A DNA stretch of 64,000 nucleotides, taken from Marsupella aquatica (lineage: Eukaryota > Plantae > Marchantiophyta). The stretch covers positions 6,720,963 through 6,784,962 of the forward strand of contig OZ316893.1 in NCBI GenBank assembly GCA_973895155.1, in the 5' to 3' direction. This document shows, in pieces, positions 33,241 through 62,234 of the stretch (positions within the stretch are counted from its first letter, which is position 1; every line of letters starts with the position of its first letter). The translations under genes and the position numbers were made by a program. The notes below the pieces were generated by a model. It saw only the letters and a program-made list of their open reading frames with translations. It was not told the DNA's origin and searched no databases.

Positions 33241-36111
33241 ATGTCAGCAGAGGAGCCAAGTCGTAGCAGCTCATCACCACCGACACCCAGGTACCACTTG
33301 CGGAGTGATCCACGACCGTTGGTGCCAATTTCATTGGAGTCTCAACAATTTCAACGATGTCAGCAGACAACAGCAGCACCCACACCACGCAATCCTTCTG
33401 CTACATTTGGCGGTCGCTTCACCACTACCCCGAAGCCTGCTATCGCTTCTCTGCCCTTTACTCCTTTTGCATCACTGATTGTTCCAGCTTCACCAACATA
33501 CAGCATGGATGCCAGTCACTCATTTGGCCGCATTGAGCGCTTCAATGGGCGGCCAGGCATTGTTTCTTTGCGTGAGTTCAAATCCACTTTCTACACTGTC
33601 GTTTACAAATTGGAGTTGAAGTATGGCAGCAACTTCACAAATGCTTTTGCATTTAAGCAGCTAGCCAGGTATGTGCACCACGAGGCTTTGGATGTGTATG
33701 AGCATCATTCTCAACGACTGCTTGCTGTCACACAATTGCCTAACCCTGCCTATGCCACTGCAATTGCGGCTGCCTCACAACTGGCATTACATAATGCCAT
33801 TGCAGCCCATGTTGCTGCTCCTACCACTTCCCCTCCTACTCCAGTTCCCACCACTGCACCAGTTACTCTCACTGTCTTGGCACAGGCTACATCAGGCATT
33901 TCTCCCACCATTGATTTCCCTGCCTTTGCTGATCCAGTGGCTGAGTTTTTCCAGGTTCTTGAATTGGAATTCCCAATCAAGAGTGCTGACAAAATCATGC
34001 AGTTGGCCACCTTTGTGAGGCAGCGCGATGAAACATTGAAGATGCTGTATCACCGGCTTCTCAAGCTGAAGGAAGACACCCAGAGCATCACTGACCTAGA
34101 AGCTGCTCATCGCTATCTTCGCGCATTGGAGGGCACACCAGCTCTCCATTCGCAAGTGTTGCAGCAAGTATTCTTAGAGTTTGGAGATAGCTACACCCTG
34201 CTCAATGTCTATGACACTGCTGAGAAACTTGAGTTGGCCCATGCACATTATGAGGCCAGTATTGCGCGTCCACCGCGATCCAGGTACCAGGCTGCTGCCC
34301 CTACACTGACCACCCCTTCCCGTGTGCCACAGTATGGTTCCAAGACCAAGCCAGCACATGCTGCTTTCATGTTGCCATCTTGCAACTACTATGGTAACCC
34401 TTATCACAAGGCTAATGAATGTGATATTGTTGTTGAGGACCTGTCTTGTGATTTTTGCGGGAAAGTGGGCCACTTGGAGGCAGTTTGTTTTGCCAAATTC
34501 CCCGAGAGGAAGCAGCTACGACAGCAGGCCACTCATCCTGCTCCTGTTTCCACTCCCCCACCAGCTAGGAGGGCTCCTACTGCATCAACTGCTCCTCCTT
34601 CCAGTGGCAAAGCATCTAGTGCCAACAAACCGCCCAAGCAGCAACAGAAGCAACCAGCTCAGAAGGAGGCTCACCACGCACAGGCAACTCAACTCCAGTC
34701 TCTGACTCATGAGTTTGAGTCCCTACGTGCCCAACTTGCCAACATCAAAGGCAAGTCAACTGCCTCTACTGGTCCTTCTCAACCGGCTGGTCACGTGCAA
34801 CCCATCCCTGGCCCAGACACCATTGACAGTTCAGCACCTCTACCCCGCTCTTTCTATGGCTTGCCATTTGATGCTCATATGGGTGAGTGTGTGCTGTCCT
34901 CTGCTCCACAGCCTGGCCTTACAGCAGAATTTTCAGATTCATTCTACCCTTCTTATTTTGCTTACCAGCAGGCTAGTGCTGCCTCCCATATTGCTCCCAC
35001 ACGCTGCATTGTACAGGCTGATGGTCTTGATGCTGGTCCTATGACTAGAGCCAGGGGAGCTCGGGCTATCATGCCCCAATCTTTTCAGCCACTCACACTT
35101 GCTGAAGAGCGCACCTTGTTGGCGAGGGGGGAGGGAGCTGCAGCTACATCCATTCCACCACCAGGTGCTGCTGACATTTCACAGGGAGTTGTTTCTCCTG
35201 AGCTGCTTGAGCATTTCACCTCCGGTATGGCACAAAGGATTCTTACAACTCCACTTTTCAGTTGCCATGATTTACAGCTGGATGCTAGAGCTGTCATCAG
35301 AGCGCTAGAGGGTTCACTGCATTCTTCATCAGCCCCTGTGACACCAGTTTTGGAGGTCCAATCTCATGTACATAGTGGACCTTCTTCTTCTCCATTACAT
35401 GTTTCCACTGGTTTGGCTGCCCCAGTACCGATTGCTGCTGATTGTGTGACCAGAGCTACACTTGATTCTGGTCATGCTGCTCCATCTTTCCTGGCTATGT
35501 TGTTGAGTGGAAAGACCGTGGATACTAACTCCCTTCACAAGGTACCTCATCATTTGCCGAGAGTGGTGCCTAGTGATAGGACTTCAGTTTCCACCACCAT
35601 TGCCATTGTTGACAACAGGAATTCAGTGGTCAAGTTGGAGGGTCACACTCCTCAGGTGGTCATGCTAGACACAGGTGCTCAACCAGTGATATTGGGCATT
35701 CAGTTTGCCAAGAAGATGGGATTGTTGACTGATCATTTACAGTAATCCAGGTGGCACATTCAGACTGCTAGTGGCACTGTGGAGGATGTGCTGGGTGAGA
35801 GTTCTACTTTACTCACTCTCACTTTTAATGGAGGTACAGATCAGGAATTGCATTTCCCAGTCAGATGTTTGGTTACCAATGCCACTACGTATGATGTGCT
35901 CATTGGCCAGGAGGCTTTGTTCCCACCAGGTTTTACCATTGACAATTGGCATGAGCATGCATACTACAGAGTTTATTGGCATACGGATGGCTCACACTTG
36001 GGCTACATTCCACTTGATTTGCATGGTGCCCATACACCTATGGCTCACCACTGTGTGTTGAAAGCAGTGCACACAGCTACCTATGTCAACTACCCATTGC
36101 AGGATTGGATT
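33241..36111 (+). pseudogene. Element B gag-protease (one in-frame TAA at 35743)
   Basis: Gag-like IERFNGRPG...LREFKSTF and QRDETLKMLYHRL; zinc knuckles CNYYGNPYHKANEC (degenerate) and CDFCGKVGHLEAVC; aspartic protease LDTGA (35665-35679), with IQTASG and DVLIG in the same frame after the stop. Confidence 0.85.
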
Positions 36112-36144
36112 CACTAGAAGAATCCGAGGTGAACTGAGACCGCA

Positions 36145-36430
36145 ATATATGACTCATTTTGGCTCATGTGACTTCATTGTGACTCAACGTGACTTGACCC
36201 ACGCTGTGACCCTTGGAGTTGCAAAAGTTGAGACCAAAAAATGGAAGTCACTATTGATACTGGGCTTTGCAACTTGCTTGATACCCATTTGTGACTGATC
36301 TGTGACTTTATTGTGGAGTCTAGCCTTGTTTCGACGTGACTACAATATGACTTCAGCGAGTCACATCGTAAGTCACATACATGACTTACCCGCATTCAAC
36401 AATGACTAGCGTGTGACTATTTAGTGTCAC
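36145..36430. repeat. CACTA subterminal repeats ((G/A)TGACT / AGTCA(C/T)), likely TnpA binding sites
   Basis: More than a dozen direct and inverted copies; similar motifs at 55560-55745. Confidence 0.7.
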
Positions 36431-36966: not shown

Positions 36967-39900
36967 TTATGGATCCTCTATGAACTTGCTTGGCCATAAT
37001 ACCAAAGAACCTGCAGCATCTCTAAGTGTCTTTTGAGGAGGATCATCATTTGTGTTTGGAATGGGAAGGACAGCTTTAGGTTTCACTAGTAATGTGACTA
37101 ACACTACTGAATAACCTGGGGGAATCCTCTTGCCATGGAACGTTGTGGAACCAACCTGCACTCTGGCAAATCCTACTCGTGTTCCACTCTCATCAACAGC
37201 TAACAAGCCACTTTGTCCCTCAGCATTAGGTGCTTTCCCCACTTCCACCTTAGATCTTTTTGCCAGCACTGTTCTTGGAGGTTTGTATGAAACCTTTGAC
37301 GTGGCTCTGCTCCCACCAGCAGACTTGCTTCATGTGCGCATGCTTTCTCTCTTCACAGTAGTGAAGCTAGGCTCAGTAGGTTCCTCTGTTAGGACTGTCA
37401 CAGTAGCAGGTTCATCACCTGGGAGTGTCATACCAACTAACTCTTTGGTTGGATTTATCTCAACAAGAGGCACACTTGTCATTGAGAATGATACATTCTG
37501 CAAATCATTTATCTCTGCAATGGAGTCAAGATCTACATAGCATGAATCTGGCTCAATGGTATCATTGTCATGCTTGCTGATATCCTCATTTGCCCCAACA
37601 TTGATATCATCCACTCCCTTGCCAATGTCATCCTCATCCAAACATGGTTGACTGCCCTCTGTCAAACAAGTTGCTTGTACAGACTGCAACTTTGTTGCCT
37701 CTAAATTACAGCGAGTATTTGCCAGGTTCTCATACTTCTTCTCTGTAGCACCTGTCTTATTCTCTATGGACACAACAACCACAATATATGTTACTGAAAA
37801 TAACACATTCAACAAACAATGTCAATTCAAACTATACATTTAATAATCATATCCCACATAGTTGTAAAGGCCTTACCTTCAAGCCTACATGTCTTTGGCA
37901 TGCCAGAAGAGTGCATCGACTTTGCCACCTCAAGTGGTGATGGTGGAACTCCTGCAGAATTAGAATCAATTTTATCTCTCACCGACACAACAGCTTCCAT
38001 TAATGTCTTGAAGTTCACATGGAACAAGTCAGTCAATGAATTCAAACGTTCATTGATCTCTGGAAGACATGTTTCGACAGCCTTCAAACAACCACTTATC
38101 TCTGTAAGTGAAGATCCACCTCCCTACATGACACAGGGGTATAGGTTCAATCACTCCATATGAAATGTTGGGCAATATATGCACAATCAATGTTATATAC
38201 AGTGTACACCTGAAATTCAACACAGGTCATTCAATTACCAATCAGAACTCATATAACTTACATGCTTGGAGGATTCAGATGCACCCTCTTGAGCCCGGGT
38301 GTTCACAATTTCAGCCCTCAACTCTTCTTTTGAAGGGCTTTGCCCCAATTGGGCTTTTTGCACATGCATGGCAAACACAAGTTATCGATCAATATTCAGG
38401 AACGTACACTAAAAAACAAAGTTTACATGTATGGGTTTACACTAAAAAATAGTACATAGTGTAACATAAATTACATAGCTAGGCCATTCATTCTTACCAA
38501 ACGTTTAGCTGCCGGTGCAGTGCCGGTCCTTCCTGTCAAATTAGAGTTCTGAACACTCAACCTGGCCTCGGTCATCTGTGAACTCTTCGTTTTTGAAGCA
38601 TCTGTTACAAAATAAGCTACTAACCTTGCCCACACTTTATCATCACAACTGGCTGGTGGAGGCATATCTGGCTTCTCCCCACCTTCCTTCCAAGCCTTAT
38701 GCATTCTCCACCTCTCTTGCTTGATAATTTTACCTGCTGTACTCTCTAGGCAACCTATGTCCACGCCATCATCACTGCCCACATAATTCCATTTGGCAAC
38801 AACATTTTCACATACAGTCTTCCAATCTTTTGGATGTTGTTTTTTAAAATTAATAACACTCACATCTAACCAACGCAATACTTCAGCTTTCAAATCAGCA
38901 TGCCATCGGTTCTTGCGAGGACACTCAGCATCCACCCATTGTCTCTCATTCAACTTTACGTTCCCTTTCTTTGTCACCTCCCCTCGTGCACTGCTCTCGG
39001 TAGTACTGGGCGTTGTATTGGCCACCCCTTCATTCACCCTACCTGGGGTTCTGAAGCCACCTGGGAAAATACAATGCCATTCATGCTTGAGAACTACATA
39101 TAGCAGAATGGATGACGGCAACATTCAATGCTTCACTTCAAGAAAAATTCTTCAAACATACATACCTGTAGCTCTGCCTGTAGATGCCTGTGCAGGGACT
39201 GCACTCTGAAATTGTTGCGACCCTGGACCACCTGTCCAGCCTAGTACAGGGGCCGGATGATGTCACTTTCTAGGTATGTGTGTGCAAACATATGTACTGA
39301 AAACTAAGTACAAACTGTAGGAAAACAACTGAACATTCACCGACATACCTGTCCCCCTTCCGTGCTGCATCTGCATAGGGGCATTAGTGAATACTTGAGT
39401 CGATGGTTTGACTGTCCAACCTGCACACATACATTTTCTATCATTATACATGTGCAGAGTCCCCCCCCCCCCACGTGAATGGACTCCACATATAATGAGT
39501 TCTTCCATTGCTGACAAGATCAGACATTACCTGCTCCTCTTCCAGCGTTTGTAGGTACTGAATTTTGATATCCCTGCCAATTACCTTCACCACCTTCCCA
39601 ACCTTGTTCATTCCATGACCCACCACCATCCTCCCAACCTGGTTCAACCCATGTCTGTCCTTGTGGACATTGGAACTGATCATTACTAGCATTTGCCCAA
39701 TCAGGTTGGGCAGAATCTGCATGCAATGGCAGGTGGACAGAATTTCATGTTGTCTGAATCCAATACATCCCAAACAATGTCAAAAATTGATATGCAGTCT
39801 GAAATTCAGGAGTGCCATGCCTTCACAAAGAACTGGCATATAGATATATACTCACATCCCCATGGTTGAGGTGGACGTCCATACCCACGAGATTGTGGGT

Positions 39901-42581
39901 TTGGACCTGCTCTGCCTCTACCACGGGCATAACCTAGAGCTTGCCCCCTGCCATAGTATTGGGCACCAGCCTGGGATCTACCACTACTACCACCTTGCCA
40001 ACCTTGATCAGAGGTCAGCCCCCCCTGCTGGTATGGTGCATGCACAGGCTTCGAAGGCAAAACAGAACTGGCAGGACGCTGCATCACATCACCAACTACA
40101 ATGTCAGGAACTAAGCAAGGTACATATGTGTAGTACTGAACATATGAAACCTCTAAACAAGAGTTTTTAACTCAAAACCTTGTTGGGAAAACTACTTACA
40201 TGTTTCTTTTGGGGCTGCTCTGCAATGTATTCATCTTCATAACCCCCATCCTCATCCATTTCCTCTGGAAAATACTCATCATCTGCATCTTCTTGTCTAG
40301 TGTCTGCACCCACCTGTGCAGCATCAATGTCATCTCCACATTCTGCCATTGTAGGTACGACCTTCTTGCTCAACCTGTCACTCCGTGTGATGCCTAGACA
40401 GGAATCACTCGGCCGGTTAAGTGGGTAAAGCAGGAAGGCACCCTAGGAACACCTTAGTATAGTGACAAAACAAGGAAAATATAAACAATTAGGGGCAACC
40501 ATGGAACCCGGGCAGAGGCCGGAGGTAAGGCTGAGGGTGAAAACCCGATTAGGGTTAGGGCGCGTTAAGCGTCGGCGGCTAGGAAGGATCAACGGGAAGA
40601 AGGACCGGCAGAGGAGAGGGGTAAGGAGCGCTTGCAGGAGATGGTGGCTCATTTGCGAGCACGAACTAGGCAGACGACTACGGGAGGCCAACTACTGTCA
40701 GCTGCTTAGGCAAGCACTCGGGAGAGAGTAGATACCGACGATCAACCTAAGGAGGGTATGAGCAACGTCAATCAAGCGGCACATTTCTGGGGATGCCTGT
40801 TCGAACGGGCAACTGAGTACATCAAGACTTACGAGGACGAGGAGTCAGAAAGGGCAGCTCGAGAATGGCAGGAGCTCGCTCGATTGTGGGAGCTGCAGAA
40901 GACGGCTTTCTTAGGAGGCGAACTCATCAAGGACGAGTTCCTGTGGACGCCTACTTCCAATCAACTCGACGATCTTCTGTTTTGCAAAGACAGCGTCGTC
41001 GGCATCCGAGAGGCCATCAAGAACTGCAACGACATACACTGGGAATTAAAGGGTAGCACGGAAAGGTGGACCCGGGCCGTGGTGATCAAGGAGGTAGACC
41101 CAGCACCGACCCCAGACAGGGTCACGGCTAAGGATCCAACTACCCTAGGGGAAGGGGAGGCCGAAGCCGTGGGAGTGGCTGAAGCCGAAGCCGTGGGTAT
41201 TACCGAGGCCGGTGTCGAGGCCGAAGCCGAAGGTGGACCCAGTCAGGCCGATGGAGAGTTGACTCGGTCAAGGGCAGGTAATCTGTCAGTAGGCGGGCCA
41301 ACGGCAGTGGCTGAGGAGGAAGTATTGGGGGCGTCCATTGAGGATCCACCACCGGTGTCGTGACGGTGCAAGGGCGCCGTTCCTTTTAGGGAGGGCGGAC
41401 GTGGAGGGAGGAGGCGTGAGTGGGCAGGGCGGGCACGGATCTCCACGTTTAGGATTAGGATCAGAACCAGGAGCGGCCCTGACACTTAGCTTAGTGGGAT
41501 TGCGGTCCCACTGGTAGGAGCAACACTTGTGCTCCTGCCTTGCTGTACATAGGTAGATTCGGGCAAGTAGATTACTGTTAAGTAGATTAGGCTTACGATG
41601 CAAAGAATGGCGGATCCACTACCAGGATAAGTACCTGGGCAGCGGGGAGCTCAGGGCCTCTTCTTTAGCAAGTTTTTAGTTTGCACCAGCCGGGCTGGGA
41701 TCAAGTAGTACGAGAAGCTCTCGGTTAGTCATACAGTGACCCTTGTGTATATTCATGTTTCCTCATGCCTAAGAGCTGAATAGAGTTGGCCTCACGGCTT
41801 AGTTCGCAGAACTTGTGTATGAGATGTACTGTTTGTATGGCAAGTGCATGGTATGACTCAGTCAGAATGAGTCATTTTGCTATTTGTGTGTCGCATTAAC
41901 TTGTGTGAAGAGTGCCCACATCAACAGAAGGAAGGAAAGTAAGCAGGGGAGTGAGAGTTGGATGTGTCGAGCTGAGAGAGGTCTTAGCGGCTTAACCAAG
42001 CCTATTGGGGATCATTCCGGCGGCGGAATCCAAACATACCTAACAAGACGGAGGGGAAGACAGGGGAAGACAAGGGAAGGCCTATATTAGGCCGGCTACG
42101 TATCTCATGACCCGATGAAGGATCTGTCCAGTATATGTGTGTAAAATGTTAATAGTAGTGGTAGAAGGTTAGCAGCGTCCCATGCCGCTAAGCCGCGGAA
42201 ACGGCCTCGCCAAGCACGAAACCTGCGGGAATCGGCTTGAGCTGGGGGGTTTCTTGGGGTTAGGGAGCCATGGGACGCACCACACTCCGACGCACAGGCC
42301 CAGAGATAGTGCTGGTCACCCTTCTTGCGTACTCCTTTTGTTTCTTTGAAAATGCTGTGGCTCTGCGACATTCCAATATGAGAATACAGTCACAATTTCA
42401 GTGCCACATTGAACTATTCATGTCACACAAACTCAGCGGAGGGGTGTAGTTGAGAATCGTTCCCTTACAATTCAGCCACATCCTTTTCCAGATCCAGTTC
42501 TGCGATTTTGGCTTTCACGTATGCTCGTTGTTCCGTAGCTTTCCTTTCATACTCACACATCTCTGTGTCACTCTGTTCCAT
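36967..42581 (-). pseudogene. Multi-exon TnpA-like gene (Ptta/En/Spm-type and TNP1-like C-terminal domains), interrupted by a solo LTR
   Basis: 38471-39124 reads PPASCDDKVWARLVAYF...KSSQMTEAR...TGRTG; 36967-37269 reads FHGKRIPPGYSVVLV...LPIP...TLRDAAGSLVLWP. The exon frame ...GPVRR|SDRLSKK is continuous across the LTR. The exon structure is only partly resolved. Confidence 0.7.
40386..42284 (+). mobile_element. Family A solo LTR (1899 bp, ~2.74-kb in-frame internal deletion)
   Basis: CTCCG|TGTGATGC...GCACCACA|CTCCG, a 5-bp TSD. Otherwise nearly identical to 57586-62212. Confidence 0.95.
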
Positions 42582-42737
42582 CCTACTGGACCACAAAAAC
42601 ATGTCATCTATGGTCACCCCGTATAACACAATGCAACCACAATCACCAGGCATCCATCCAGACATCTGTGTTGCTTCAGAATTACTTTATTACACATCCT
42701 TCCCCTCACTAATGTCCATGCAAACAATTCACATTAC

Positions 42738-45700
42738 TCATGGCACAGGCACACTGTTGGCATCTGCATCTCTGAATTCGCCTCCTTCAGCAAATGCATC
42801 TACCCTTGTCACAGGAATGAAGTCCCCGGTATCATGAACTACAGGCACTTGGTCTGAACGCCGACAATCAAAGGCACTATGAGAGTGTAAATGAAACTCA
42901 AGGTTTGATCCTTCCATCCGACGTTGCCTGGCCTGTTTATGACACACTACACGCCAACCTGGGGAGTCTTCCACATCCAGGAAGAAAGCTTGCTCCACCT
43001 GACTAGGAAACACAAATGGCTCAGACCATTCGGGAAATTTCCCTCTGAAATTGGCCAGCAAGAAACCGTCGTTGTCTCTCTTCATGGTAGCCCTGTTACC
43101 AAGCCAATCCTGCCGCACCCATGAACCTTTCATAAGAATCACAGGACTGGACACCGCCCCATAGTCTAGAGCCCATATGTCAACTAATTCTCCCACATAT
43201 CCCATCTCCATCCAGGCCCTGTCGTGATTGTGGCTCTGTTGCTCAAATACAGCGATGAGCCCGCAGTCATTCGTCACCCTGTAGGCACTGTCACCATCCT
43301 TCACTCGGAAGTGATTCCCATATGCTCTCATCCGTTTGTAAGTCTTCACTTTCAGGCTAGGGGCATTAGACAGTAGGTAAACATCTGCATCCATGTCTGG
43401 GTGGGTCTCGTGATGCTCTCTAATTGCCACTCTGATCCACTCCATGAAACCTGGAAAAGTTGTTCCTGCAGTGGGATGGGCCGCCTTCAATGACTCATAC
43501 TCCCTGAACGAACAACCACACAGCATTAGCTTGGGTAAACATGAACAGGCTGAAGGAGAAAACCACACGAACACAACATTTAAGCTCATGAACTGGATTA
43601 TAGCACATGTATGCACTCACTGTATCCAGGGTTCCATCACCACAGTGTTGTGCAATACAAAGTCATGTGCCAAGTCTCTCATAGATATGGTCAGGTTCTT
43701 TGTGGTTGCAGCCCCTTCCAGTACTTCACCTATCACCCCTTCCTCCTCATCAGAATTCCACACCCTGGTCTTCACATGCTCATATTGTGCTATGTATTCG
43801 GTCAGAAATCTCAGAGTCTCATCCTTGATGTAACCTTTAGCCATGCTTGCTTCAGGTTTGTAATATGTTCTCACGTGACCTTTGAGTAGCTTCATGTACC
43901 GTTCCAAAGGGTACAACCAACGAGCACTCACAGGCCCAAATTGGTGTAGCTCTTCCACAACATGGACAAGTAGGTGGGTCATGACATCAAAAAATGCGGG
44001 AGGAAAATAAATCTCCAGGTCACAGAGCACCTGAGCGACATCTTCTGTCAGTTGTGGGAAGTGTGTTTCATCCCAAACCTTCACACAAATACGATGAAAC
44101 ACATCACTGAGTCGCATGATCACAGTACGAACAGGCTTCTGCAACAGGCCCCTCAGGCATAAAGGCAACACCTGTTGCATCAACATATGGTAGTCATGGC
44201 TTTTCATACTACCAAGCTTTCTAGTCATGATATGCTTCTTGAAAGCACTGCCATAGTTTGAAGGAACCTTCAAAGAACTCAACCTCTGCACAAATAGTTC
44301 CCACTCTGTATCTGTCAGAACATAGGGCGCTTGGTACTTCAAGAGCACATCAGCTCTGTGGGCATGTGGCCTCAACCAAAGATGGGGTTTCATTCCCCTC
44401 TGTTCAAGATCCAATCTCACTGAACCAGTGTCTTTCTCTCCACACAAGAATCTGAGTAGACTCTCACAAATATTCTTTTCAATGTGCATAACATCAATGT
44501 TATGTTTGCTTGGCTCAAACTCCTGCATCGTTGCAATGCAAAAGCGTCAGGAAATGCCTCAAGTTTAGTCTCTCTCTTCGAAATGAATGCACATGCTCTG
44601 AACCAAAACATGTATCCCAATTAGCATCAACTCCAAGAGGCTTACCCTCCAGTACTTGAGCTCCAAGTCCAATATGCTCAGTCTTTTTACACCATATCGC
44701 TTTATTGGATCACTCACTCCATCTTCCCTGCCCCCTCGTTTGATATAGTCATCCCTTAGTGCTCCCCACTGCCTGATCTCCTCTTTGGTCACTCGTGCCG
44801 GGGGTCCACGTTGCTCAATCTCATTGCCAAAGTGTGCAATCAGTGCCTGTCTTTCTCTGTAAGGGTGATCTGCCTTCAGAAAACGATGATGGCCCATGTA
44901 TATCACTTTCTGCAGGGCTCTGGAGTACTCACTGGTGACATTGCGCCCACAGATAGTACAAGCACAATATTCTTTTGTTGTTTGGCTTGATATCATCCCA
45001 TGGGCTGGGTAGTCAGCTATAGTCAGAATGACAATGGCTCTAAGGATGAATGGGTTTAACCTCCCAAGCCTCTGTAGGACATCATATGTGAGAACTCCTT
45101 CCTCCCAAAGCTTTCTCAATTCCTCCACTAGGGGAGCCAGAAACACATCTATGTTGGCAGATACAGCACTGTCTGGCCCTGGTATCAGTAGGACCATCAG
45201 AACAAAAAATCGCTTTGTAATCATCCAAGGAGGAAGGTTATAATTCAAAATAGTTACAGGCCAACACGAAAATTTGTTGTTCTTGTCTCCAAATGGGTTT
45301 ACCCCATCCAATGATAGCCCAAGTCTGACATTCCTTGGCTCAGCAGCAAATTCGGGATACATCTCATCTATGAGTTTCCATTGCCTTGAATCTGCAGCAT
45401 GTCGTTGTAGCCCATCATCACTTTTCTTGTCAGTTGCCCAAGTCATCATCTCCGAGATGGCACGGCTTCTGAACATCCGCTGAAGTCTGGGAATGAGTGG
45501 AAAATGACGAAGTACCTTGGCGGGAACCATAGACTTTCCTGAGTTCCGATACCTGTGCTTCCCACACTTAGGGCATGTCAACGATTCTTTATACTCCTTT
45601 CTGAAAAGAACATGCCCATCAGGACAGGCATGGATCGAATCATAGTTCAATCCAAGATTAGATATGCATCTTTTTGCCTCGTACATGTTCTTGGGCAAAA

Positions 45701-46469
45701 TATTACCATCTGGTAGCACAGTTGTTCGCAAGAATGCCAACAACTCAGAAACCAAAACGTTGGGGACATTGTGGTTGCCGCAAATGTTCAGGAACATGAT
45801 GACAAATCCCAGTTTAGAACATTTGCTACCGGGGTACAAAGACTTCCTGCCTTCCTGTATTTGCAGGGGAGAGCCAAACATCCCATCATGCCCAGGGGTT
45901 TCCTGCCCTATCTCAAACTCATCAAGAGGCTCTTCGACAGGGGGCACACTTGCATCTGCAGCCGTATCCTCTTCGTTGTCCAGCCCATCATGAAATGCAT
46001 CCAAGTCTTGGAAGATGTCTCTCACCATCTCTTCCACATGAATTCCTTTGTCACGTGGTGCTGCCTGAGCACCATCCCGTTGGAGAGCTGACAACCCACA
46101 GAGACCAGCTACAACATTTTCAAATGCACCAGGCAGAACCTCACTTGCCCGTCTTGCAGCATTGGCAGCATCAAATTCTAACCTCCACTCCTCGTCGGAA
46201 GAATCTTCCTCTGCAGGATCATTCCAAACTCGATGTCGTGGATCTCTTCCATGAACCGCGATATGCCGCCAAACCTCATTCAGACCCCTGGTACGGGATC
46301 CTTGGCAGATTGCACAAGGACATCTCATCCTACTGGCTCCTGAAAGTCTGGTTCGTAACCTTTCACGCTGCCAAAGCTTATTATCATGGCGTGATTCCCT
46401 TGTGGGATGATGCAAAGGCAGTGCCTGTGCCCTGGGCTGGGTCTGGGGAGGGTGGTGACCAGGGTGCAT
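42738..46469 (-). CDS. CACTA TnpD-type transposase (Transposase_21/DUF4218/DUF4216-like); join(46469..44646,44522..43621,43503..42738)
   Basis: Motifs CPCAIC, IHACPDGHVLF, FAAEPRNVRLGLSLDGVNPF, NYNLPPW, TIADYPA, HNIDVMHIEKN, MKSHDYH, FFDVMTHLLVH, WLYPLERYM and EPFVFPSQVEQAFF. Two GT-AG introns keep the frame and no stops are seen. The start and last exon are uncertain. Confidence 0.88.
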
Positions 46470-46901: not shown

Positions 46902-47774
46902 TCACTCTGATTCAGAATCGCTAATGACCCATTCCTCACTTGTTGTCTCATAGTCCTCTCTGTAAGGATCCTGACCCTTCCGTGGCCAGGCCTCAAAAAG
47001 ATCATAGTCCATTGGGTTTTGATGCTTCCCAGCTGCTACTGATTCCACAAGCCAAGCATATGAAACCACAAACACATTATGGGACATGACATAAAAGTGA
47101 ATGTCTCCCTTCCCAAACTTGCGGCAGGCTTTGGGATATGACTTAGTAATGACATGAGTGGTGTCCTCTGTTATATTCTCCTCCACTGTCCCACCTAGGT
47201 CAAGCACTGTGGACTTGTACACTTTGCACTTAACCTCTCCAATTCCCGCCTCCACAAATACCATGCTCAGCCCTTTCAGAATGGGGGTTGGTTGCTTCGT
47301 CTCCTCAGCCAACATACTCTTCAGCCTTGTAGAGCTCTGTCCTTTGTTGAGTACAGGTCCATATTGGAGATCAGCAAGCCGTGCCTTTGTTTCCCAGACT
47401 TCTTGTTCAACCCAAGCTGATGCAGTAGCTTCTTCATCCTCCCACAACTCATATTGCTCAGTATCCTGTACAATCTTATGTGCTATGGAATCTGTGATCC
47501 AAGAGGCCTCAACTACTTTTAGGCCTTGCTTAGTAATTGCAGAATTCATGTAGGACCATGACCACTTCTTTATCACTGATAGCCATGTCCCTGCAACAAC
47601 ATGTGTAGTCTCTGGAGTGATGTCCTGAACTACAGTGCCATGGAGCTCAGAGAATCGTTTCTGTATAGTTGGCCAATGCACTTTGGTCAACCCATGCTGG
47701 CCATGGACCAAAATCGCTCTGACCCCTGTAAACACTGCTGGGTGGTCACACTTTCTATGTTTACCAGGCTCCAT
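46902..47774 (-). CDS. Tandem BRCT-domain protein (~290 aa), CACTA cargo
   Basis: Two repeats: FTGVRAILV...LHGTVVQDITPETTHVV...VVEASWITDS and LKGLSMVFV...LGGTVEENITEDTTHVI...VVSYAWLVES. Intact ORF. Confidence 0.85.
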   Translation of the reverse strand: MEPGKHRKCDHPAVFTGVRAILVHGQHGLTKVHWPTIQKRFSELHGTVVQDITPETTHVVAGTWLSVIKKWSWSYMNSAITKQGLKVVEASWITDSIAHKIVQDTEQYELWEDEEATASAWVEQEVWETKARLADLQYGPVLNKGQSSTRLKSMLAEETKQPTPILKGLSMVFVEAGIGEVKCKVYKSTVLDLGGTVEENITEDTTHVITKSYPKACRKFGKGDIHFYVMSHNVFVVSYAWLVESVAAGKHQNPMDYDLFEAWPRKGQDPYREDYETTSEEWVISDSESE

Positions 47775-48367
47775 GTACACACACCCTACGTGATGACAGT
47801 GAATTTTGGAAGAATGGGTTCACCTGACAATACAAGGACAACAAAATTCCTGCTTTTTGAGTTGATCTGGCCCACTGGTGCTCAGGTCCGATTTTGATAG
47901 GTACAAGGGATATGTGAACAATACGTACTAGGCACCTGCACGGATGCAGGACATTGTTTGAATATATACTACAAAATCCATATCCGTGGTGAAATGAAGT
48001 GCAACCAACTTGTCATGGCACATACATATTTTGTTGTAAAGGAGGATACATTCAAATGACAAACTTATAGGGAAATTTGATTAATTGCATGCCTGATAAT
48101 TTATACGCTTACAACTTAGAAGTCCTGTTTTAATTTAGCAGTCTGATGAAAGTGTTTATGAAAATGACCACTCAGCCTAAATACTTCCAAGAAGGCTTGT
48201 AAGGATAAGTTTGTATAGGCATGTACCCAGCCACTGACGCCAGAGCACAAGATAAGTGCTGCCTATATAAACTCGCCTACCCAACTCCTTTTCAAAATTG
48301 GAATCTCTGCAATCTCAAAAAATAGTACATCCACATCAGGTGCACTGTGCATGTACAATGTTCAGCT

Positions 48368-49048
48368 TCACAGCCAAGATATGTGATCTCTCACAGGAGT
48401 GCGCGAGGTAGGATCAATGGCATGGCGATGACAATAAAATATCCATCGATCAACACCATGTGCAGAGTGATCATAGATTTCTCTGTCACAAGCATAACCC
48501 TTTGCTTGATGATCTTTCAGGCAATGATAGTGCCACATAGTGGGACACCTAGCACAGTGGACTATGTCAGTCCAGTAGTCATCATCATGCTCACCACATG
48601 CCTTGCACCTATGAAGTGGGCAAGCTGTGGCATGAGCAGGCAAACACTCAAAACAGAAAAATCTCACACAAAAACGGTCTAGACATTTCCTAACATTTGC
48701 TGCAGCATCAACAGAGCCCTCATAGGACCCCAACTTCCCACACTGTGCACACTTAGCCTGCTTCTCCAAACAATCAGTGCACATCCAGTCTCCCTGGTGT
48801 GTTGACGGGAGGCCCACCCCTGGACAGTTGTTTTCTGTAGCAAGGTCAGACTCCGGGTTGAGGTGGAAATGCCTCATGCAAGGGCCCTCACAAATGACCA
48901 GGGCCCCACCATCGTCACAAATGGCACAACAATGAGCTGCCTTCTGGAAAATCTGACTTGCAGAGAAGTTAGTAGCATCTGCCCCAAGTACACCTGTGTT
49001 TCTCACCTCTGTCACACGCTTTTTGGCTTGAATTTTAGGCCGTGCCAT
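48368..49048 (-). CDS. EDM2/NSD-like tandem PHD-finger protein (226 aa), CACTA cargo
   Basis: CAICDDGGALVICEGPCMRHFH...CTDC...CAQCGKLG...CPLHRCKAC...CARCPTMWHYHCL...YCHRHAIDPTSRTPVRDHI follows the layout of the plant EDM2 PHD region. Confidence 0.8.
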   Translation of the reverse strand: MARPKIQAKKRVTEVRNTGVLGADATNFSASQIFQKAAHCCAICDDGGALVICEGPCMRHFHLNPESDLATENNCPGVGLPSTHQGDWMCTDCLEKQAKCAQCGKLGSYEGSVDAAANVRKCLDRFCVRFFCFECLPAHATACPLHRCKACGEHDDDYWTDIVHCARCPTMWHYHCLKDHQAKGYACDREIYDHSAHGVDRWIFYCHRHAIDPTSRTPVRDHISWL

Positions 49049-49059
49049 GCCTGCGCATG

Positions 49060-49203
49060 AGATAGACTCTACAATTTAGCAGACTGCACAGAAAGTAAAA
49101 TATATTTAGCATTTAAGGTACAAAGGCATTTAGATAGACTCTACAATTTAGCAGACTGCACAGAAAGTAAAATATATTTAGCATTTAAGGTACAAAGGCA
49201 TTT
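49060..49203. repeat. Perfect 72-bp tandem duplication
   Basis: agatagactctacaatttagc...caaaggcattt occurs twice. Confidence 0.9.
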
Positions 49204-49818
49204 GCTACTGCAATGAATTGGAATGGCCACACAAGGATGCAGAGCACACATACTTTTGGTATGTTGAGTCCACACACAAAACTGATCCCCTAATACAATT
49301 TCTCCACCAACACCTCAATTTTAATTGTGGCTATGATTCACCAAAGGAGATCTGCAACAACATTTCATGCATTTGAATCACATACAATAGTCGTGACATG
49401 TAAAACAGGCATTCTTCGAAGAGGATTGGTATGAAGCAGTGTCATAAGGGTTGAAATTTATACATCCTAAATAGGTTATGATAGTGGCTGAGACAAATAA
49501 GTGAGGCATAAATCATTTTGCATATTATCACATGGCCCATTAATTCATTCAACGTTGCAATGTTCACCAGGTTAAAGCAGTCATGAAAGCAGTCTTTCAA
49601 TAGAGACTTTTATGCGAGTTTGCTAGCCTCTTAAATTAGGATATTTTGCTTAGTGCAGGCATAATAGGATATAAGTTATGTACTGTTGACCCTAAACCCT
49701 GGACCCAAAATTGCTCATACATCAAAATTTTAAGTAAATATCCTCTATGTTGAAGTCAGAGTGTTAAGCTATAGGTCAATGGTATCTGGTCTGTGCATGC
49801 GGTGTGACAAGTGGTCCT

Positions 49819-50283
49819 CTAGAGCATGTGATCCAAACATGTGTAGACACCAAAGTCACCGGTGGTGGGGTCTGGGAGGGCAGGACAAGTGACATCACCA
49901 GGCACACTGCAGGATGGCGAGTGGTTCCAGATGATACATTGTGCTCTGTGCAAAAATCGGCATCCAAGAGAACGGTCATCCAATTCTGGGCCAGAAGCCC
50001 TACAGGCAGGACAGTCATATTGGCAACTGTGTACACACCCTTGGCACCTAATTTGTGGCGGGTCATGTACAAGAGACACAAATACCAAGGATGTCGGGAA
50101 GGGTACTGAAGCAGGTAGAGGCTGGCTGTAGTTGTTCCTGGAAACAACAGGGTACTCAAAGTACCATGCAGACTGGGCTGGAAGGATCCCAAGTCTGACA
50201 TACTCAAGGCGCAACATCTCTGCCTTGCGTGCAAGTCGTACATGTTCAGCGTTGCGGGTCCTCACCATAAGTGTTGCTTTCAT
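49819..50283 (-). CDS. Hypothetical Cys/His-rich protein (154 aa), CACTA cargo
   Basis: ATG-started intact ORF co-oriented with the other CACTA genes; CQGC..CQYDCPAC...C..H..C..H...C pattern. Confidence 0.45.
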   Translation of the reverse strand: MKATLMVRTRNAEHVRLARKAEMLRLEYVRLGILPAQSAWYFEYPVVSRNNYSQPLPASVPFPTSLVFVSLVHDPPQIRCQGCVHSCQYDCPACRASGPELDDRSLGCRFLHRAQCIIWNHSPSCSVPGDVTCPALPDPTTGDFGVYTCLDHML

Positions 50284-51279
50284 TGTGATGTCCTCTGTTC
50301 ACGTCCTTTGATGAGCAAGGTGAGCAGGAGGTCGACTTGCCTCGCCAACAGCAACCACCTAAACTAATCAGTTCCCACTCATTGTCTTGGTTCCAACTAC
50401 AGGTCATAGTATACACATAGCATGAAACGTGCATAGTACATATTTGATTCTGAGTTTATGAGTTTCCTAAGACAAAGAGCTTGGTGATAAACCCATATTC
50501 TCGACGGACATGTATATCAATCATATTAAACTCCTGTTTTTTCATCCAGAAAGACCGAAAGTCTCACCTTGCAGGTTGCAGCAGAGAGAAAATTCACTGG
50601 TTGTCGTGTTGTGCAAGTGAACCTCCACTGATGCCCCGGTGTAGCCCCTCAGATGCAGGTGACACTTACCAACTCCCAAGTTGCCTGGTCTAACAGAAAA
50701 TGCTTAATATATCTTCAGAACTTTATAGAGCAAGTACATGATCACATACTTCTGGATCTATTCATATTTGGAACTCTTGCCAACTACAACTCCCATTATG
50801 CACAAGCTCACATCAACAGAGAAAGATACAGAATGCATACTTACTATGGCTCTAAGCACCTTCACTACCTTGTTGAACCCAGTCCTGAAGTCTTTTCAGC
50901 GTGTTTGTTGTGCTGTCTCCTTTGGCACCCAACACCTTAGTCCTTGATGTAACAGAATGCGATTTTACAAGTTAGATGCTTTGGAACCTTCTATGGTCTT
51001 AGCTGAATTGATGTCATCGTAAGTGGTGAAAGACAAGGAAGACGAAAGCTGGTTGAAGAGCTGTGGACAACACACTAGCATGAAGTGCTTCAACCAATCC
51101 ACTGCCAAACGGAACTCTTACACAGTCACATTCTTTTAGTAAACAAAAACTCAGTCAAACTTCAGAATCAAAGTACAGACTCTGAAGGACCAAAGGAGGA
51201 TGTTGTGAGTTTCTCTGTTGTTTAATGTGTTACCCTTCTAGTTTCGAAGTTAGCAAATGCTGAATAATGTGTCTACCAG

Positions 51280-51622
51280 ATCTTCGAAAAGAAGCCCACC
51301 ACAATTAAGAACTTCGGTATCTGGGTCCACGTATCAGAGTCGTACAGGTTATCACAACATGTACAAGGAATATTGTGATACCACAAGAAACGGAGCTGCA
51401 GAGCAGATGTATGATGAGATGGCTTCTTGTCATAGAGTTCGGTTCCCTTGCATCCAGATCATGAAGACTACGACATTCCCTGTCTCTCTGTGCAAGCGAG
51501 AAAGTACCAAGCAGTTCCATGATTCAAAGATCAAGTTCCCCTTGACGTACTGCAAGATTCAACCTCCATTGCGAAAGCTAAAGACGACTTACAAGGCCAC
51601 CAAGCCCAACACAATTGTTTGA
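51280..51622 (+). pseudogene. RPL18A: Captured last exon of 60S ribosomal protein L18a (eL20), frameshifted
   Basis: After a cag| acceptor it reads [15 protein letters not shown], then a +1 shift, then [38 protein letters not shown]...[18 protein letters not shown]...[11 protein letters not shown]. Confidence 0.9.
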
Positions 51623-52969: not shown

Positions 52970-55779
52970 CAGTTCCTAGAAATGTAGTGAACCTTAAGGT
53001 CGTCTGTTCACCCCCCCACCCCATCGCCGGGCACAAGGCATGTTCTGATATAGGGAGGAGCAAAACAATCATGTCAAGCAAGAAGTGTGGAGAGACCAAT
53101 CTGTAAGCAAAAATAGGGGAGAACATACATACATCAGCAGCAACAGGAAACAAGAAAGATGAGTTCAGAAAGCATCTTAGGGTCGGGGACATCACTGCAA
53201 CACCGGGACTTAGGATATGACTTGTTCTTAATCTGTTGATAGCATCCGGTAGGCCGGCAACCCATGGCAAAAGGGCAGAGCAGCAATAACAGTTTGAATC
53301 TGACGGATGAAGCTCCAGGCAAATGAGCTCCAGGCGATTGGGTGCATGATTGAGCAGGCGATTGTAACAGCAGGCACCAGGTAATTTAAAGGAAGCAACA
53401 TTCGGCAATGGACCTAGGCAGCTCACAAATTTTGCTTAGCAGCGATGTCACTAGACCCTAAACACGCAATGCATACATCACCTAGACAACTATACTTGCA
53501 GTCACGAGGTGAGTCCGCGTCGATAGGGGATTGCAGCCTTACCTGTGCCGATGTAGCACCAAGCCGCCCTAACTGAAGCTGCGTAGCAATCCGCAGCAAT
53601 CGCTCAATGCAAAACAAGTCCCCGGTTGGCCTTGCAGCCCGATCATCCACCTTCAACCCTGCCACCAAGCAATGAGCTCTCCGCTGTTGCTCACCCTAAA
53701 CCTTCAACACTCCCGCAAAGTTGTGTCTACCCGCAAGATTGGGTGCGTGATTGATTCGGCGATTGTAACAACAGGCAGCCGCAATCGGTCGCAGGTCATG
53801 GATACACAAGCTCCAATGTGCTCCCTTTAGCTGAAACAATACCAGTTGTCGCTCACCACCAACACTTTCAGCAACAACACATATTTGTTGTAGTCCGCAC
53901 CTTAAACCTTAGCCATGGGGTGGTCAATCAAGTTCCGCAATGCCTAAAACACCGACCACCTGACTTACATGAAATGTGCACACAGCTAAGCTCACCTGCA
54001 GCTCACGCCAACCACATTGGGACAATTGAAGTGAATACTGCCATAGCTGAACTCGACTCCTCGTGACTCTTTCGCGCCTCCGTAGACTGCCTTACTCACA
54101 GTGCCCAACGCAAAAAAAGGCCCGGTCAATGTTGCAGCCACGATGATCCACCTCACGCTAGATAGTTGGCCTTCAAGATCACTCCCCACTTTCTTGCAGC
54201 TCCCCGGCCCTCCACAGCTCCTCGTCCATGGCAGTGCTGCAAATCAATAAGCTCTTGGTTGTAGCTCCTCAGTTGTCGGTCACAGCTGCAACAACAGAAG
54301 CTCGTAACCTTACGATGGAAACCCGGAAAAAGCACCTTCCTGCTTGCCAAAGAGCGACACTGTCAACACTCAACGAACGACACTTTGACTCAGTTTCTCC
54401 GAATAGTTTTGGAAACAATTCGTAGACTGAGAACGAGGAATAGGGTTGTGGTATGCATTGGACAAGAAGTCAGTGAGTGAGGTAGTCGACTCTCGGCCAC
54501 AAAGAGCAGAAGACAAATCAGACGAGCATGAAGACCCCGACAACAATGACATATCCAGACGACGAGCAGGGACTTACGCAATAAAGTCTAGCCTTGATCA
54601 AGCACTGCTATTGCACCTGCCTGCCATCACCATCTCTCAAGCGAGAGTGAAGTCCGTAAAGCTCCTTGCACAAAACCCTTCACAAAACCTTCAGGCACGA
54701 TGAATGTCCCCGGCCGACAGCAGAATGGACAAGCTAGTTTTTCCCTAAACCGAGTTCCCGCGCACATTCAACTCAACTTTGCACTCTGCTGCCGTGTTAA
54801 ACAAAACCCGCGCACCCTAAACTTGTGTCCAAAGGCACACTCACGCACATTGAAGTGGAGACATTGAAAGCACAAAAGAGACACAAAAGTCTATGATTTG
54901 CCTAATTAGTTTTTTCCTTTGAAACCAAAGGACTTACGCAATAGTTATATGTGGGGTGAGTGGTTAGTCACAACTTTGAACCACCCCCTTTGGTGAAAAT
55001 GTGGCCAAATAGTCAGGTATATATGACCCCACATTACCATTATGATAAGTACACTTTTTTAGGGTTGGGGTAGTGAAGAGCTGATCATATATATTTAAGT
55101 TGGACATTTAAGTTGGACTTATATTGAACATGAACCATGCATTGGTTGTCATATATGAAGGGGGCATGGGAAACATGAAGGTTTATGGGGCATGGCAATA
55201 AGTAAACCCAACCTAGCTACATGTGAGGCTGAAATTGGGTGATAATTAAGCACCTTTTTGGCACGACCAGAAGACGGCGATAGAAAAATTAGAGATTGAC
55301 TACAAAAAGCATTAAGTTAGGTTAGCAAGCTTTGACAAATCCTTTGTGCAGTTGAATGGGGCTGGGGCGCGCTTCATGGTGTCTAAATGGGGGCAGGAAT
55401 AATGATGGAATACTCAGTAATGGTTTCAAATGGTATGACCTGACTATAATTAAATCTATGTGGGATGACATATGGTGTATCCAAAATCATATGTATTGGG
55501 TTAGATCCCATACTTTAAGGTTGAAGGGCTCAAATGTTGTGCTCTCATAAGTTGTACTCTAATGTAGAGTCGCTTGTATGACTTCAACCTAATTGCCTTA
55601 ACTGAGTTATAGTTACAACTTCCCTAAAAGTTGTAAACATGACTCCTCAAAACTTCACCAAAACTCAGTCAAGAAGGTGTGACTAACATGACACCAACAA
55701 CTTTGGAGTCGCTGTTTCATGAAGGTCTCGGACAAGTCACGTTCTTTGTGGTCTCAGAAAGGGTGGGTTTCTTCTAGTG

Positions 55780-57585
55780 ATTGAGGAGGATGATGATGAG
55801 GTGGCTACTGCACATGCTGCTGCACGTATAGCAACACTTTCCAGCAACGTGGATCATCAACCAGAGGTGGTACAACGGCTCCAAGCAGCCCATGGACCTT
55901 TGGTGGCTGCATTGCGCAAATTTGAGGATCTTGGGCAGCACAATGGCCAACCAATAGCCCCAATCTTGAGCGCACCAGTTACATGGACTCCTCCTTCAGA
56001 TGGCCTTACATTGCTTGAGCTTTTTGGTGGCATTTCTACAGGCCTGGAAGCTCTCCTACAGTCTGGTATGGTGGTGAAGCAGTACATCTATGTGGATATT
56101 GATCCAGGTGCAAGGCAAGTGTCTGAATCCCGTCTGCTGGAATTTTCAGAGCGATTTCCCCAGCAGTTTCCACACAGTGCATGGAAGTCTGCATTTTCTT
56201 TCTTTCCTCCAGATATCCAGCTTGTCCAGCACCGGCACTTAACCCTTCTTGGCTCCCTTGATTTGATCATAGCTGGTTGGGAATGCCAAGGGTTGTCAGC
56301 TGCTGGTCACGGTGCTGGACTGCATGATTCTCGTTCTGGCCTTTTCACAGCATTGGTTCAGATTCTCACCTGGGCTCAATCCCTTCATCCTGCTATTGGT
56401 TATATCATTGAGAATACTCCATCTCAGTTTGACCAGCGTCCACAGGTCAAAGAGGATTTCAGTGTGGTCCAACACCACTTGGGACCACCCCTTCTCATTG
56501 ATGCCGTGCATTGTGGTTCTTATGCACATCGTCTTCGTAACTTTTGGACTAACCTTGCACCACCTTCCTTGTTGGAGTTAGCTCTTCACCACACATCCAG
56601 GGACACTAACCTCACAGTGGACCAGATTTTGGATCCTGACAGCTCTTGCCAACCAATTACACGGCAAGAGCCAGCACCTTGGTATCCAGCCAATACCATT
56701 GGACAGCCCCGTGCTGCTTGGCCTACATTTGTATCCTTTCCAGGTGCACATGCCTTTCAGGGTGATGGTCCTGGCCTGGTTTATCGACATTCTACCGGTA
56801 CTTGGGATGAACCTAGTCCTGAGGAGAGAGAACGGGCTATGGGCTTCCAATCCGGTACTACAGGTCACACCCAGATCACCAGGCTGGCCAGGAATGCTTT
56901 ACTTGGCAGGGTAATGGATCTTAATGCTCTCACTTGGCTTCTGGTCACTTGCATCCTTTTTCAGATGTACATTCATCCAGCATCTGGAGTTCCAGCTCTA
57001 CCACTCCATGGTGCTGCTACATGGCATCCCGACCAGGTGCACTTACCTCTATTCAACACTCACCGCTTCAGTCCAAGTGTTGGGGGGGAGGAGGTCCCTT
57101 GTAATGTGGCTGATATTATTTCTGAGTTTCATGGTGTGGACCAATCCAGATCAGCAGGTACAACAGGCCTTGGAGAGGCCTCATCACCTTATCAGCAGCA
57201 TGCTAGCAGCTTGGACAGTGGAGAGGCTAGCACTTCTGGCTCTTCAAGTACGAGTACATCAGGTCCTATTCCTAGTGTTGCCAACTACACATTCATCATG
57301 GGCAACCACCTGAGTAAAAGACAGAAGGACCAGCTGCTGAATTTGCTCCTCAAGCATGAGAATGTGTTTGCTTTCTCTATGAAGGACTTGGGTACGTGCA
57401 AGACTATGCAGTTCTCCATTGAGTTGGCTGATGAAACACCTATCTTCAGGCGGAGACACCGTTTGAGTAAGCATGAGTGGTAGCTGGTGGATGAGAGGTG
57501 CCAAGAGTTATATGAAGCTGGCCTTATTTAGCCATCTACATCAGATTTTGCAGCAGCTACAGTGATGCCAGCAAAGAAGGATTCC
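55780..57585 (+). pseudogene. Element B pol continuation: DNMT3-like C5-cytosine methyltransferase domain (~56005-56940) followed by the start of gypsy RT
   Basis: Motif I LELFGGISTG, II YVDID, IV AGWECQGLS, VI IIENT, VIII AHRLRNFWTNL, IX ERERAMGF, X ARNALLGR. Then LLKHENVFA...FSIELADETPIFRRRHRLS..E and AGLI*PSTSDFAAATVMPAKKD, with stops at 57481 and ~57529. Confidence 0.88.
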
Positions 57586-62212: not shown

Positions 62213-62216
62213 TTTT

Positions 62217-62234
62217 TGGCGCTAGATGGAGGGG
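62217..62234 (+). promoter_or_regulatory. Primer binding site complementary to tRNA-Asn 3' end
   Basis: TGGCGCTAGATGGAGGGG, 4 nt after the LTR, is one mismatch from the complement of the plant tRNA-Asn end (CCCCTCCTTCTAGCGCCA). Confidence 0.8.

What the first reader, a model, noticed from the sequence alone, without database searches (positions are those of the whole stretch)
48368..49048. CACTA transposon carries a stand-alone EDM2-like PHD module
Seen: an intact, intronless 226-aa ORF with the Cys/His ligand pattern of several PHD-like fingers, ending TPVRDHI, co-oriented with the transposase. Known: Arabidopsis EDM2 reads H3K9me2 through this region and, with ASI1/AIPP1, promotes full-length transcription through heterochromatin. 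Inference: a captured and streamlined heterochromatin reader, used for anti-silencing, as a decoy, or to target insertion into heterochromatin. This copy did land inside a TE nest. It is diverged but unbroken, unlike the decaying RPL18A capture nearby.
Basis: partly seen in the sequence, partly recalled or inferred. Interest (0 to 1): 0.78.

Follow-up and report, generated by a model that had tools for sequence, protein, structure and literature searches.

The report
Plant transposon carrying EDM2-type chromatin reader
A 19.7-kb plant cut-and-paste transposon carries two small extra genes, a three-finger zinc module related to the plant chromatin protein EDM2 and a BRCT protein; the zinc-finger gene belongs to an old, conserved family and likely binds chromatin to help the element stay active, but neither binding nor expression has been shown.

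Summary
The ORF is real: 226 aa, minus strand, all 24 zinc ligands of three PHD-type fingers. It lies inside a complete CACTA element (36112-55779; CACTA ends, ATT target duplication), co-oriented with an intact transposase and a second, unreported cargo gene, a 290-aa tandem BRCT protein. It belongs to a distinct clade of ~220-aa stand-alone proteins (full-length relatives 38-81% identical), none annotated where checked, 13 of 21 partial or broken, as expected of transposon cargo. Selection shows at family level: synonymous sites saturated against a relative with dN 0.6, ligands conserved, no common indels, and a modest synonymous excess (10 of 23 variants). This copy's intactness proves little: it is young (about 1% from the family majority). 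An EDM2-specific C-terminal motif supports EDM2 ancestry; the tree cannot name the donor or reject an NSD-side position. H3K9me2 reading, expression and function are untested, and the acidic patch before EDM2's first finger is gone, replaced by a conserved H3-like MARxK start. Linkage to transposons is shown only for this close family. No description found in ten literature searches. New variant of a known kind (compare KIU/VANC).

The parts
36109..36111 (.). 3-bp target-site duplication ATT, left
36112..36145 (+). Terminal inverted repeat starting CACTAGAAGAA (3' end of the element relative to its genes); 10 AGTCAC-type subterminal repeats in the next 400 bp
36970..42686 (-). Multi-exon second gene region (TnpA-like, inferred); weak Transposase_24 hit in exon 38471-39124
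   Evidence: (E 0.0016, under cut-off); exon structure not resolved
40386..42284 (+). Internally deleted retroelement copy inserted into the CACTA, 98-99% identical to 57586-58278 and 61012-62212
42738..46469 (-). CACTA transposase, three predicted exons (46469-44646, 44522-43621, 43503-42738), about 1163 aa, in frame
   Evidence: Transposase_21 E 1.6e-68, DUF4218, DUF4216; first splice join translated, second read from the printed sequence
46902..47774 (-). 290-aa tandem BRCT ORF, second cargo gene
   Evidence: Pfam BRCT E 1.4e-14, two stretches; two same-length relatives at 54-59%
48368..49048 (-). 226-aa EDM2-type triple PHD ORF (the finding)
49060..49203 (.). Exact 72-bp tandem duplication just upstream of the ATG
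51250..51622 (+). Frameshifted RPL18A fragment, opposite orientation (passive capture)
   Evidence: Ribosomal_L18A E 1e-17; frames
55746..55779 (-). Terminal inverted repeat (5' end of the element relative to its genes)
55780..55782 (.). 3-bp target-site duplication ATT, right

Best explanation
The ORF is a conserved extra gene inside a complete CACTA transposon, likely cut down long ago from an EDM2-family gene, and its protein likely binds chromatin to help the element stay expressed. Steps. Shown: it lies between the TIRs, is shared by the close family, and is under purifying selection. Inferred: a shared 5' promoter feeds four co-oriented genes (PHD, BRCT, transposase, TnpA-like), each of the first three behind an acceptor-like AG, so reaching the transposase needs read-through past upstream ends inside a silenced element. 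Inferred: the protein has no catalytic domain and is not fused to the transposase, so it would act as an adaptor or competitor. It would dock on H3 tails of the element and either recruit or displace the host ASI1-AIPP1-EDM2 machinery, which in Arabidopsis promotes distal polyadenylation through heterochromatin. The mark it reads may differ from EDM2's. This copy is probably dead (retroelement insertion in its second gene) and now drifts.
For: Element boundaries and TSD. Contigs of runs X1, X3, X5 and X7 have depth in 30 of 30 bins from transposase to upstream of the ORF, including spacers and an unspliced intron. 0 of the 12 best-supported indels fall in coding sequence, which is 65% of the stretch (P about 4e-6). 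No indel at 15% share or more in the ORF in 4 runs. Variants segregating among subfamilies: 10 synonymous, 13 non-synonymous, no stop, no ligand change; pN/pS about 0.35-0.48, P 0.013-0.065. Against L001: 44% aa identity, codon positions 59/60/34% identical, pS 0.76 (saturated), dN 0.61. Short family monophyletic, 100/100. An EDM2 C-terminal profile built without short proteins scores them 17-37 bits (9 of 13) against at most -1.3 for 4 full-length NSD-type controls. Model pLDDT 69.5 with PZP and NSD PHD hits. EDM2 background: PMC7472560, PMC7529245, PMC6208443 (passages).
Against: No expression or binding data. The acidic patch before finger 1 is lost, and about 20-30 residues of finger 2 are deleted with a His-to-Cys swap, so EDM2's specificity and partners may not be kept. 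No distant relative was seen next to a transposase: L001 is 1.9 kb with none and no DNA was available for the others. The indel test for the PHD neighbourhood alone is weak (P 0.04, 0.09 after merging close pairs). The synonymous excess loses significance at kappa 4. Two low-depth X3 contigs do carry gaps in the ORF (table 8). PHD-only EDM2-like proteins also exist as annotated host genes in grasses and Marchantia. EDM2 itself can silence a DNA transposon (Mu1; PMC3632883 passages).
Confidence: 0.45

Rival explanations
1. Insertion-targeting subunit: the PHD protein binds the transposase (possibly with the BRCT protein) and steers integration to a chosen chromatin state, as RAG2's PHD or chromovirus chromodomains do (both recalled).
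For: Two reader-type modules sit directly upstream of the transposase; this copy is inserted in a retroelement within a TE nest.
Against: One insertion only. No fusion to the transposase. In run X3 extra high-depth variants cover the PHD ORF and upstream DNA but not the BRCT or transposase (bins 27,114-40,512 versus 4,233-14,777), so the ORF seems to travel with more than this transposase; the tool warns depth is no copy number.
Confidence: 0.2
2. Histone mimic or self-gated reader: after Met removal the conserved N-terminal ARxK imitates H3 A1-R2-x-K4 and either plugs the protein's own finger 1 or titrates host H3 readers and writers.
For: MARxK in 8 of 19 relatives with an N-terminus although the next 20 residues vary; one relative has MARTK. 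Among 203 other fetched proteins only 3 begin so, all PHD-only EDM2-like proteins of a separate clade. The H3 N-terminus is as in the loci.
Against: Noticed after the fact; relatives share it by descent; a basic tail may be a nuclear-localisation signal or DNA-binding arm; the tail is disordered in the model (pLDDT 28-47 for residues 1-30); one subfamily lacks it.
Confidence: 0.12
3. Passenger: a host gene family of some unannotated plant lineage, captured recently by this CACTA family and amplified without benefit to it; deep conservation reflects host function.
For: The element does capture host DNA passively (RPL18A). PHD-only EDM2-like host genes exist. Transposon linkage is not shown for distant members.
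Against: Single-exon module, whereas EDM2 genes are intron-rich (recalled); 13 of 21 relatives partial or broken and L001 has an in-frame stop; none of 7 looked up has an NCBI or UniRef record; gap-free variants 12-14% different occur at depth 2,600-2,900 in X3; in X7 diverged high-depth contigs align on the PHD motifs and the transposase but not the spacer.
Confidence: 0.15
4. Not EDM2-derived: an independent offshoot of NSD-type PHD arrays.
For: AU test does not reject short family plus NSD-type (p 0.505); the whole-module EDM2 profile scores NSD-type controls as high as some short proteins (81-114 versus 82-136 bits).
Against: C-terminal motif test; only longer hit by sequence search is an EDM2-architecture protein, 28% over 210 columns; Atlas top hit is a streptophyte PHD_NSD cluster at 0.92.
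Confidence: 0.08

Closest known systems
EDM2 and EDM2-like proteins (Arabidopsis EDM2/ELP1; Spirodela P0007; Marchantia Mp2g00350, Mp1g03210, Mp4g03050; grass PHD-only forms such as Os03g0266600)
   Same: Same three-finger order and the same C-terminal YC-x2-H-x-I-x5-TP-x-R-D-H-I motif; 28% identity to P0007 residues 237-444.
   Different: No RFD, acidic patch, methyltransferase-like or proline-rich parts; finger 2 shortened with Cys for His; long separate branch; inside a transposon; basic MARxK start.
KIU/Ulp1 and VANC accessory genes of VANDAL Mutator-like elements (PMC13317346, passages)
   Same: Host-derived domain kept by selection in an autonomous plant DNA transposon; VANC acts in anti-silencing.
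   Different: Different superfamily and domain; VANC recognises DNA motifs, this would read histones; function here untested. That review has 0 occurrences of PHD or BRCT.
Pack-CACTA gene capture (PMC13317346, passages)
   Same: CACTA ends with captured host DNA; the RPL18A fragment fits this.
   Different: Pack-CACTA cargo is typically fragmentary in non-autonomous elements; here two whole conserved ORFs sit in an element with an intact transposase.
Transposon-borne chromatin readers: RAG2/RAG2L PHD, Academ PHD, chromovirus chromodomain (all recalled, not read here)
   Same: Mobile element carrying a histone-reader fold.
   Different: Other element classes and finger types; chromodomains are fused to the integrase.
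NSD1-3 PHD1-PHD3 array (PDB 29hg, 7cro)
   Same: Homologous finger types (Pfam PHD-1st_NSD, PHD_NSD, PHDvar_NSD).
   Different: NSD-type controls lack the C-terminal EDM2 motif; no SET or PWWP domain here.

Membership tests
CACTA/EnSpm transposon | TIRs starting CACTA/G | tested here: met
   CACTAGAAGAA at 36112 and 55779; 35-nt arms 74% complementary
CACTA/EnSpm transposon | 3-bp target-site duplication | tested here: met
   ATT both sides; host frame continuous across the site
CACTA/EnSpm transposon | TnpD-type transposase (Transposase_21, DUF4218, DUF4216) | tested here: met
CACTA/EnSpm transposon | Second gene (TnpA-like) and subterminal repeats | tested here: inconclusive
   Transposase_24 E 0.0016 under cut-off; repeats clear at one end only (10 versus 2)
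EDM2-type PHD module | Three NSD-type fingers in order with complete ligands | tested here: met
EDM2-type PHD module | EDM2-specific C-terminal motif | tested here: met
   35.3 bits versus at most -1.3 for 4 NSD-type controls
EDM2-type PHD module | Phylogenetic nesting within EDM2 family | tested here: inconclusive
   Best tree separates NSD-type 95/93 but AU tests reject neither NSD-side nor liverwort-paralog placement
EDM2 protein family (full) | RFD and methyltransferase-like (ELP) domains | tested here: not met
   226 aa, PHD only; no such domain in 56 upstream frames
EDM2 protein family (full) | Acidic stretch and Asp/Glu before finger 1 | tested here: not met
   0 of 18 short proteins versus 36 of 50 EDM2-like
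EDM2 protein family (full) | Binds H3K9me2; joins ASI1-AIPP1 complex | not testable with these tools
   needs peptide binding and co-purification
Selected transposon accessory gene (KIU/VANC kind) | Present across copies and under purifying selection | tested here: met
   modest within the close family, strong across distant relatives
Selected transposon accessory gene (KIU/VANC kind) | Linked to transposons in distant relatives | tested here: inconclusive
   only L001 (1.9 kb) had DNA; indirect depth pattern in X7
Selected transposon accessory gene (KIU/VANC kind) | Expressed and affects silencing or transposition | not testable with these tools
   no run on record as RNA

The most novel reading that the evidence does not exclude
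An ancient plant CACTA lineage carries its own chromatin toolkit: a stolen EDM2 reader with an H3-mimic tail that hijacks the host's heterochromatin read-through complex so the silenced element still makes transposase, plus a tandem BRCT protein that manages the DNA-damage response at its breaks.
Probability: 0.2. Interest if true: 0.85.

Novelty: new variant of a known kind. Interest (0 to 1): 0.62.

Why it matters
Few plant transposon counter-silencing genes are known, and the best studied (VANC) recognises DNA motifs. A histone-reading accessory gene taken from the host's own heterochromatin read-through factor would be a second route, in a different superfamily. The minimal 220-aa module is also a natural truncation series for asking which parts of EDM2 read H3K9me2, and the paired BRCT gene suggests transposons may engage DNA repair signalling directly.

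Tried and rejected
No whole genome was held, so full copies could not be aligned. No RNA holder listed: no evidence either way on expression; no spliced joint at either transposase intron among the 15 of 28 joints shown. Complex prediction with an unmodified H3 tail gave no answer (score 0.02, alignment not used): not evidence. Viral contigs: 0 of 90 candidate stretches related. Metagenome scan: 1 of 147. L001 shows no blastn match to the window. 64 other frames in the element gave only RPL18A as a real Pfam hit; the 154- and 155-aa ORFs at 49776-50283 match nothing. Rfam: 0 hits in 36000-56000. The first C-terminal motif control used NSD slices I had cut short; it was redone with full-length proteins. 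My note that this copy's changes are mostly C-to-T was wrong: 4 of 8. The 71-row tree is a quick tree; the careful tree used 29 rows picked by me, with only amoebozoan/oomycete-like NSD-type outgroups and no animal NSD. A liverwort-paralog donor looked attractive from the N-terminal match but is neither supported nor rejected (p-AU 0.60). Runs X8 and X9 gave only 2 and 1 contigs.

Full report
Observation. The minus strand of 48368-49048 gives a 226-aa protein without internal stop, ending TPVRDHISWL. Pfam finds PHD-1st_NSD, PHD_NSD and PHDvar_NSD in order, each under its curated cut-off. The 24 ligand positions are all present and nearly invariant in 11 aligned relatives. An AlphaFold2 model has mean pLDDT 69.5, with residues 1-26 under 50; Foldseek's best hits are JADE1 and BRPF1 PZP domains (E 6e-5 to 2e-4, low TM-scores) and NSD PHD tandems.

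The element. A scan for CACT-type ends with a duplicated target found CACTAGAAGAA at 36112 and its reverse complement ending at 55779, with ATT on both sides; this is also the longest inverted repeat in 33000-57600. Without the element the flanking frame runs through, from a protease-like region into a C5 DNA-methylase region of a retroelement, so the 19,668-bp boundaries are firm. From the 5' end the minus strand holds the PHD ORF, a 290-aa tandem BRCT ORF (BRCT E 1.4e-14), a three-exon transposase of about 1163 aa, and a TnpA-like region interrupted by a deleted retroelement copy (40386-42284). A frameshifted RPL18A piece lies on the other strand. Each of the first three ATGs has an acceptor-like AG 2, 11 and 18 bases upstream; a shared leader with alternative splicing is my inference.

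The family. Sequence search gave 5 relatives of 217-245 aa at 37-81% identity among 129 candidates and one longer hit among 365, a Spirodela protein with EDM2 architecture (28% over 210 columns, E 3e-25). A profile search returned 568 hits; from the best 150, plus cluster members, I aligned 21 short relatives. Eight are full length; 13 are partial or run out of frame, some perhaps at contig ends. None of 7 looked up has an NCBI or UniRef record. One relative with DNA, L001, is single-exon, has an in-frame stop before the module and no transposase in 1.9 kb. The BRCT protein has 2 same-length relatives at 54-59% among 1243 candidates. The host lineage was not determined beyond a plant (weak DUF688 hit at 7876-10926).

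Presence across copies. Ten of 12 listed runs hold the stretch, from 8 studies and 7 organisms, five with half or more of the words. Contigs of X1, X3, X5 and X7 have depth in 30 of 30 bins of 42600-50400, including spacers and an unspliced intron; no piece spans the whole. In X3 summed depth over the PHD ORF is 27,114-40,512 against 4,233-14,777 over transposase and BRCT; in X7 it is 1,104-3,885 on the ORF, about 1 in the spacer and up to 5,475 on the transposase. Summed contig depth is not copy number, so I read this only as: further variant families carry the ORF, and a diverged family in another organism matches on coding motifs only.

Selection. All 12 best-supported indels (37 more not shown) lie outside coding sequence, which is 65% of the stretch (P about 4e-6; for the PHD neighbourhood alone 0.04-0.09). 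On the ORF no indel reaches 15% in 4 runs, though two low-depth contigs have gaps. Of 34 listed differences, 23 segregate among subfamilies (10 synonymous, 13 not; pN/pS 0.35-0.48; P 0.013-0.065), 8 separate this copy from the X3 majority (1 synonymous, 7 not) and 3 are from a single X9 contig (all non-synonymous). No stop and no ligand change occurs. So this copy is young and drifting, and its open frame alone proves little (74% by chance). Against L001 synonymous sites are saturated while dN is 0.61: long-term purifying selection is clear.

Origin. The short proteins form one clade (99 in a 71-row quick tree; 100/100 in a 29-row careful tree) on a long stem in an unresolved base of the EDM2 group. 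AU tests reject neither a position beside NSD-type fingers (p 0.505) nor beside liverwort EDM2-like paralogs (p 0.60). The better evidence is the C-terminal motif: a profile from 55 EDM2-like proteins scores 9 of 13 short proteins at 17-37 bits and 4 full-length NSD-type controls at -1.3 or less; the other 4 short proteins are divergent or broken there. PHD-only EDM2-like host genes in grasses and Marchantia fall in other clades, so truncation happened more than once and being stand-alone is not itself new.

What changed. Finger 2 has lost about 20-30 residues and has Cys for His. The acidic stretch before finger 1 (median net charge -5; D/E at position -3 in 36 of 50) is absent in 18 of 18 short proteins scored. 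The N-terminus keeps MARxK in 8 of 19, like H3's ARTK; 3 of 203 other proteins start so, all PHD-only EDM2-like forms of another clade. This was noticed after the fact.

Mechanism. EDM2's fingers bind H3K9me2, and the ASI1-AIPP1-EDM2 complex promotes distal polyadenylation through heterochromatin (PMC7472560, PMC7529245, passages); EDM2 came down with H3K9me1-3 but not unmodified H3 peptides (PMC6208443, passage). It also acts both ways on transposons, repressing Mu1 and relieving COPIA4 (PMC3632883, passages). With no catalytic part and no fusion to the transposase, an adaptor or competitor that keeps the element's long transcript going is the most economical reading (0.45), ahead of insertion targeting (0.2), passenger (0.15), histone mimicry (0.12) and non-EDM2 origin (0.08). 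None of these functions is shown.

Literature. Ten full-text searches found no report of a CACTA-borne EDM2-type PHD or BRCT gene: CACTA+BRCT+transposase 0 papers, EDM2+EnSpm 0, CACTA+PHD finger+EDM2 1 (uses CACTA1 only as a tested locus). A 2026 review of gene capture describes Ulp1/KIU and VANC and has no occurrence of PHD or BRCT (PMC13317346, passages). I saw passages only for these papers and for PMC5751038 and bioRxiv 10.1101/2022.09.21.507229, and the abstract of PMC5890265; no supplements were read. Subscription journals, Repbase and Dfam were not searchable, so earlier annotation is possible. RAG2, Academ and chromovirus parallels are recalled.

Verdict. Observation confirmed; interpretation partly supported. 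A real, selected, apparently undescribed accessory gene pair in a plant CACTA lineage, function untested. New variant of a known kind; interest 0.62.

Noticed in passing
window 46902-47774 (-): 290-aa tandem BRCT ORF between the PHD ORF and the transposase, with two same-length unannotated relatives at 54-59%; a second conserved cargo gene, not found in print.
   Followed up: partly
window 33172-36111 and 55780-57585 (+): The host retroelement carries a C5 DNA-methylase-like region (Pfam E 2.7e-5) after a protease-like region; retrotransposon DNMTs are described for dinoflagellates and charophytes (PMC5890265, abstract). Occurrence in this plant may be worth checking.
   Followed up: partly
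window 49776-50400: Highest summed depth of the laid stretch in X1 and X3, with two overlapping 154-155 aa ORFs that match no Pfam family; possibly a conserved leader exon or promoter.
   Followed up: partly
proteins P0033, P0041, P0059: PHD-only EDM2-like proteins of a separate clade (P0033 from Eleusine) also begin MARxK, apparently independently.
   Followed up: no
window 49060-49203: Exact 72-bp tandem duplication immediately upstream of the PHD ATG, duplicating a pyrimidine-rich acceptor-like site.
   Followed up: no
window 25020-33177, 40386-42284, 57586-64000: Several related LTR-retroelement copies with long extra ORFs (682, 361, 270 aa); the 682-aa ORF has no Pfam match.
   Followed up: no
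window 15318-15686: Three diverged copies of a 141-146 bp repeat unit.
   Followed up: no
window 7876-10926 (+): 1016-aa ORF with weak DUF688 matches; probably a host gene.
   Followed up: no
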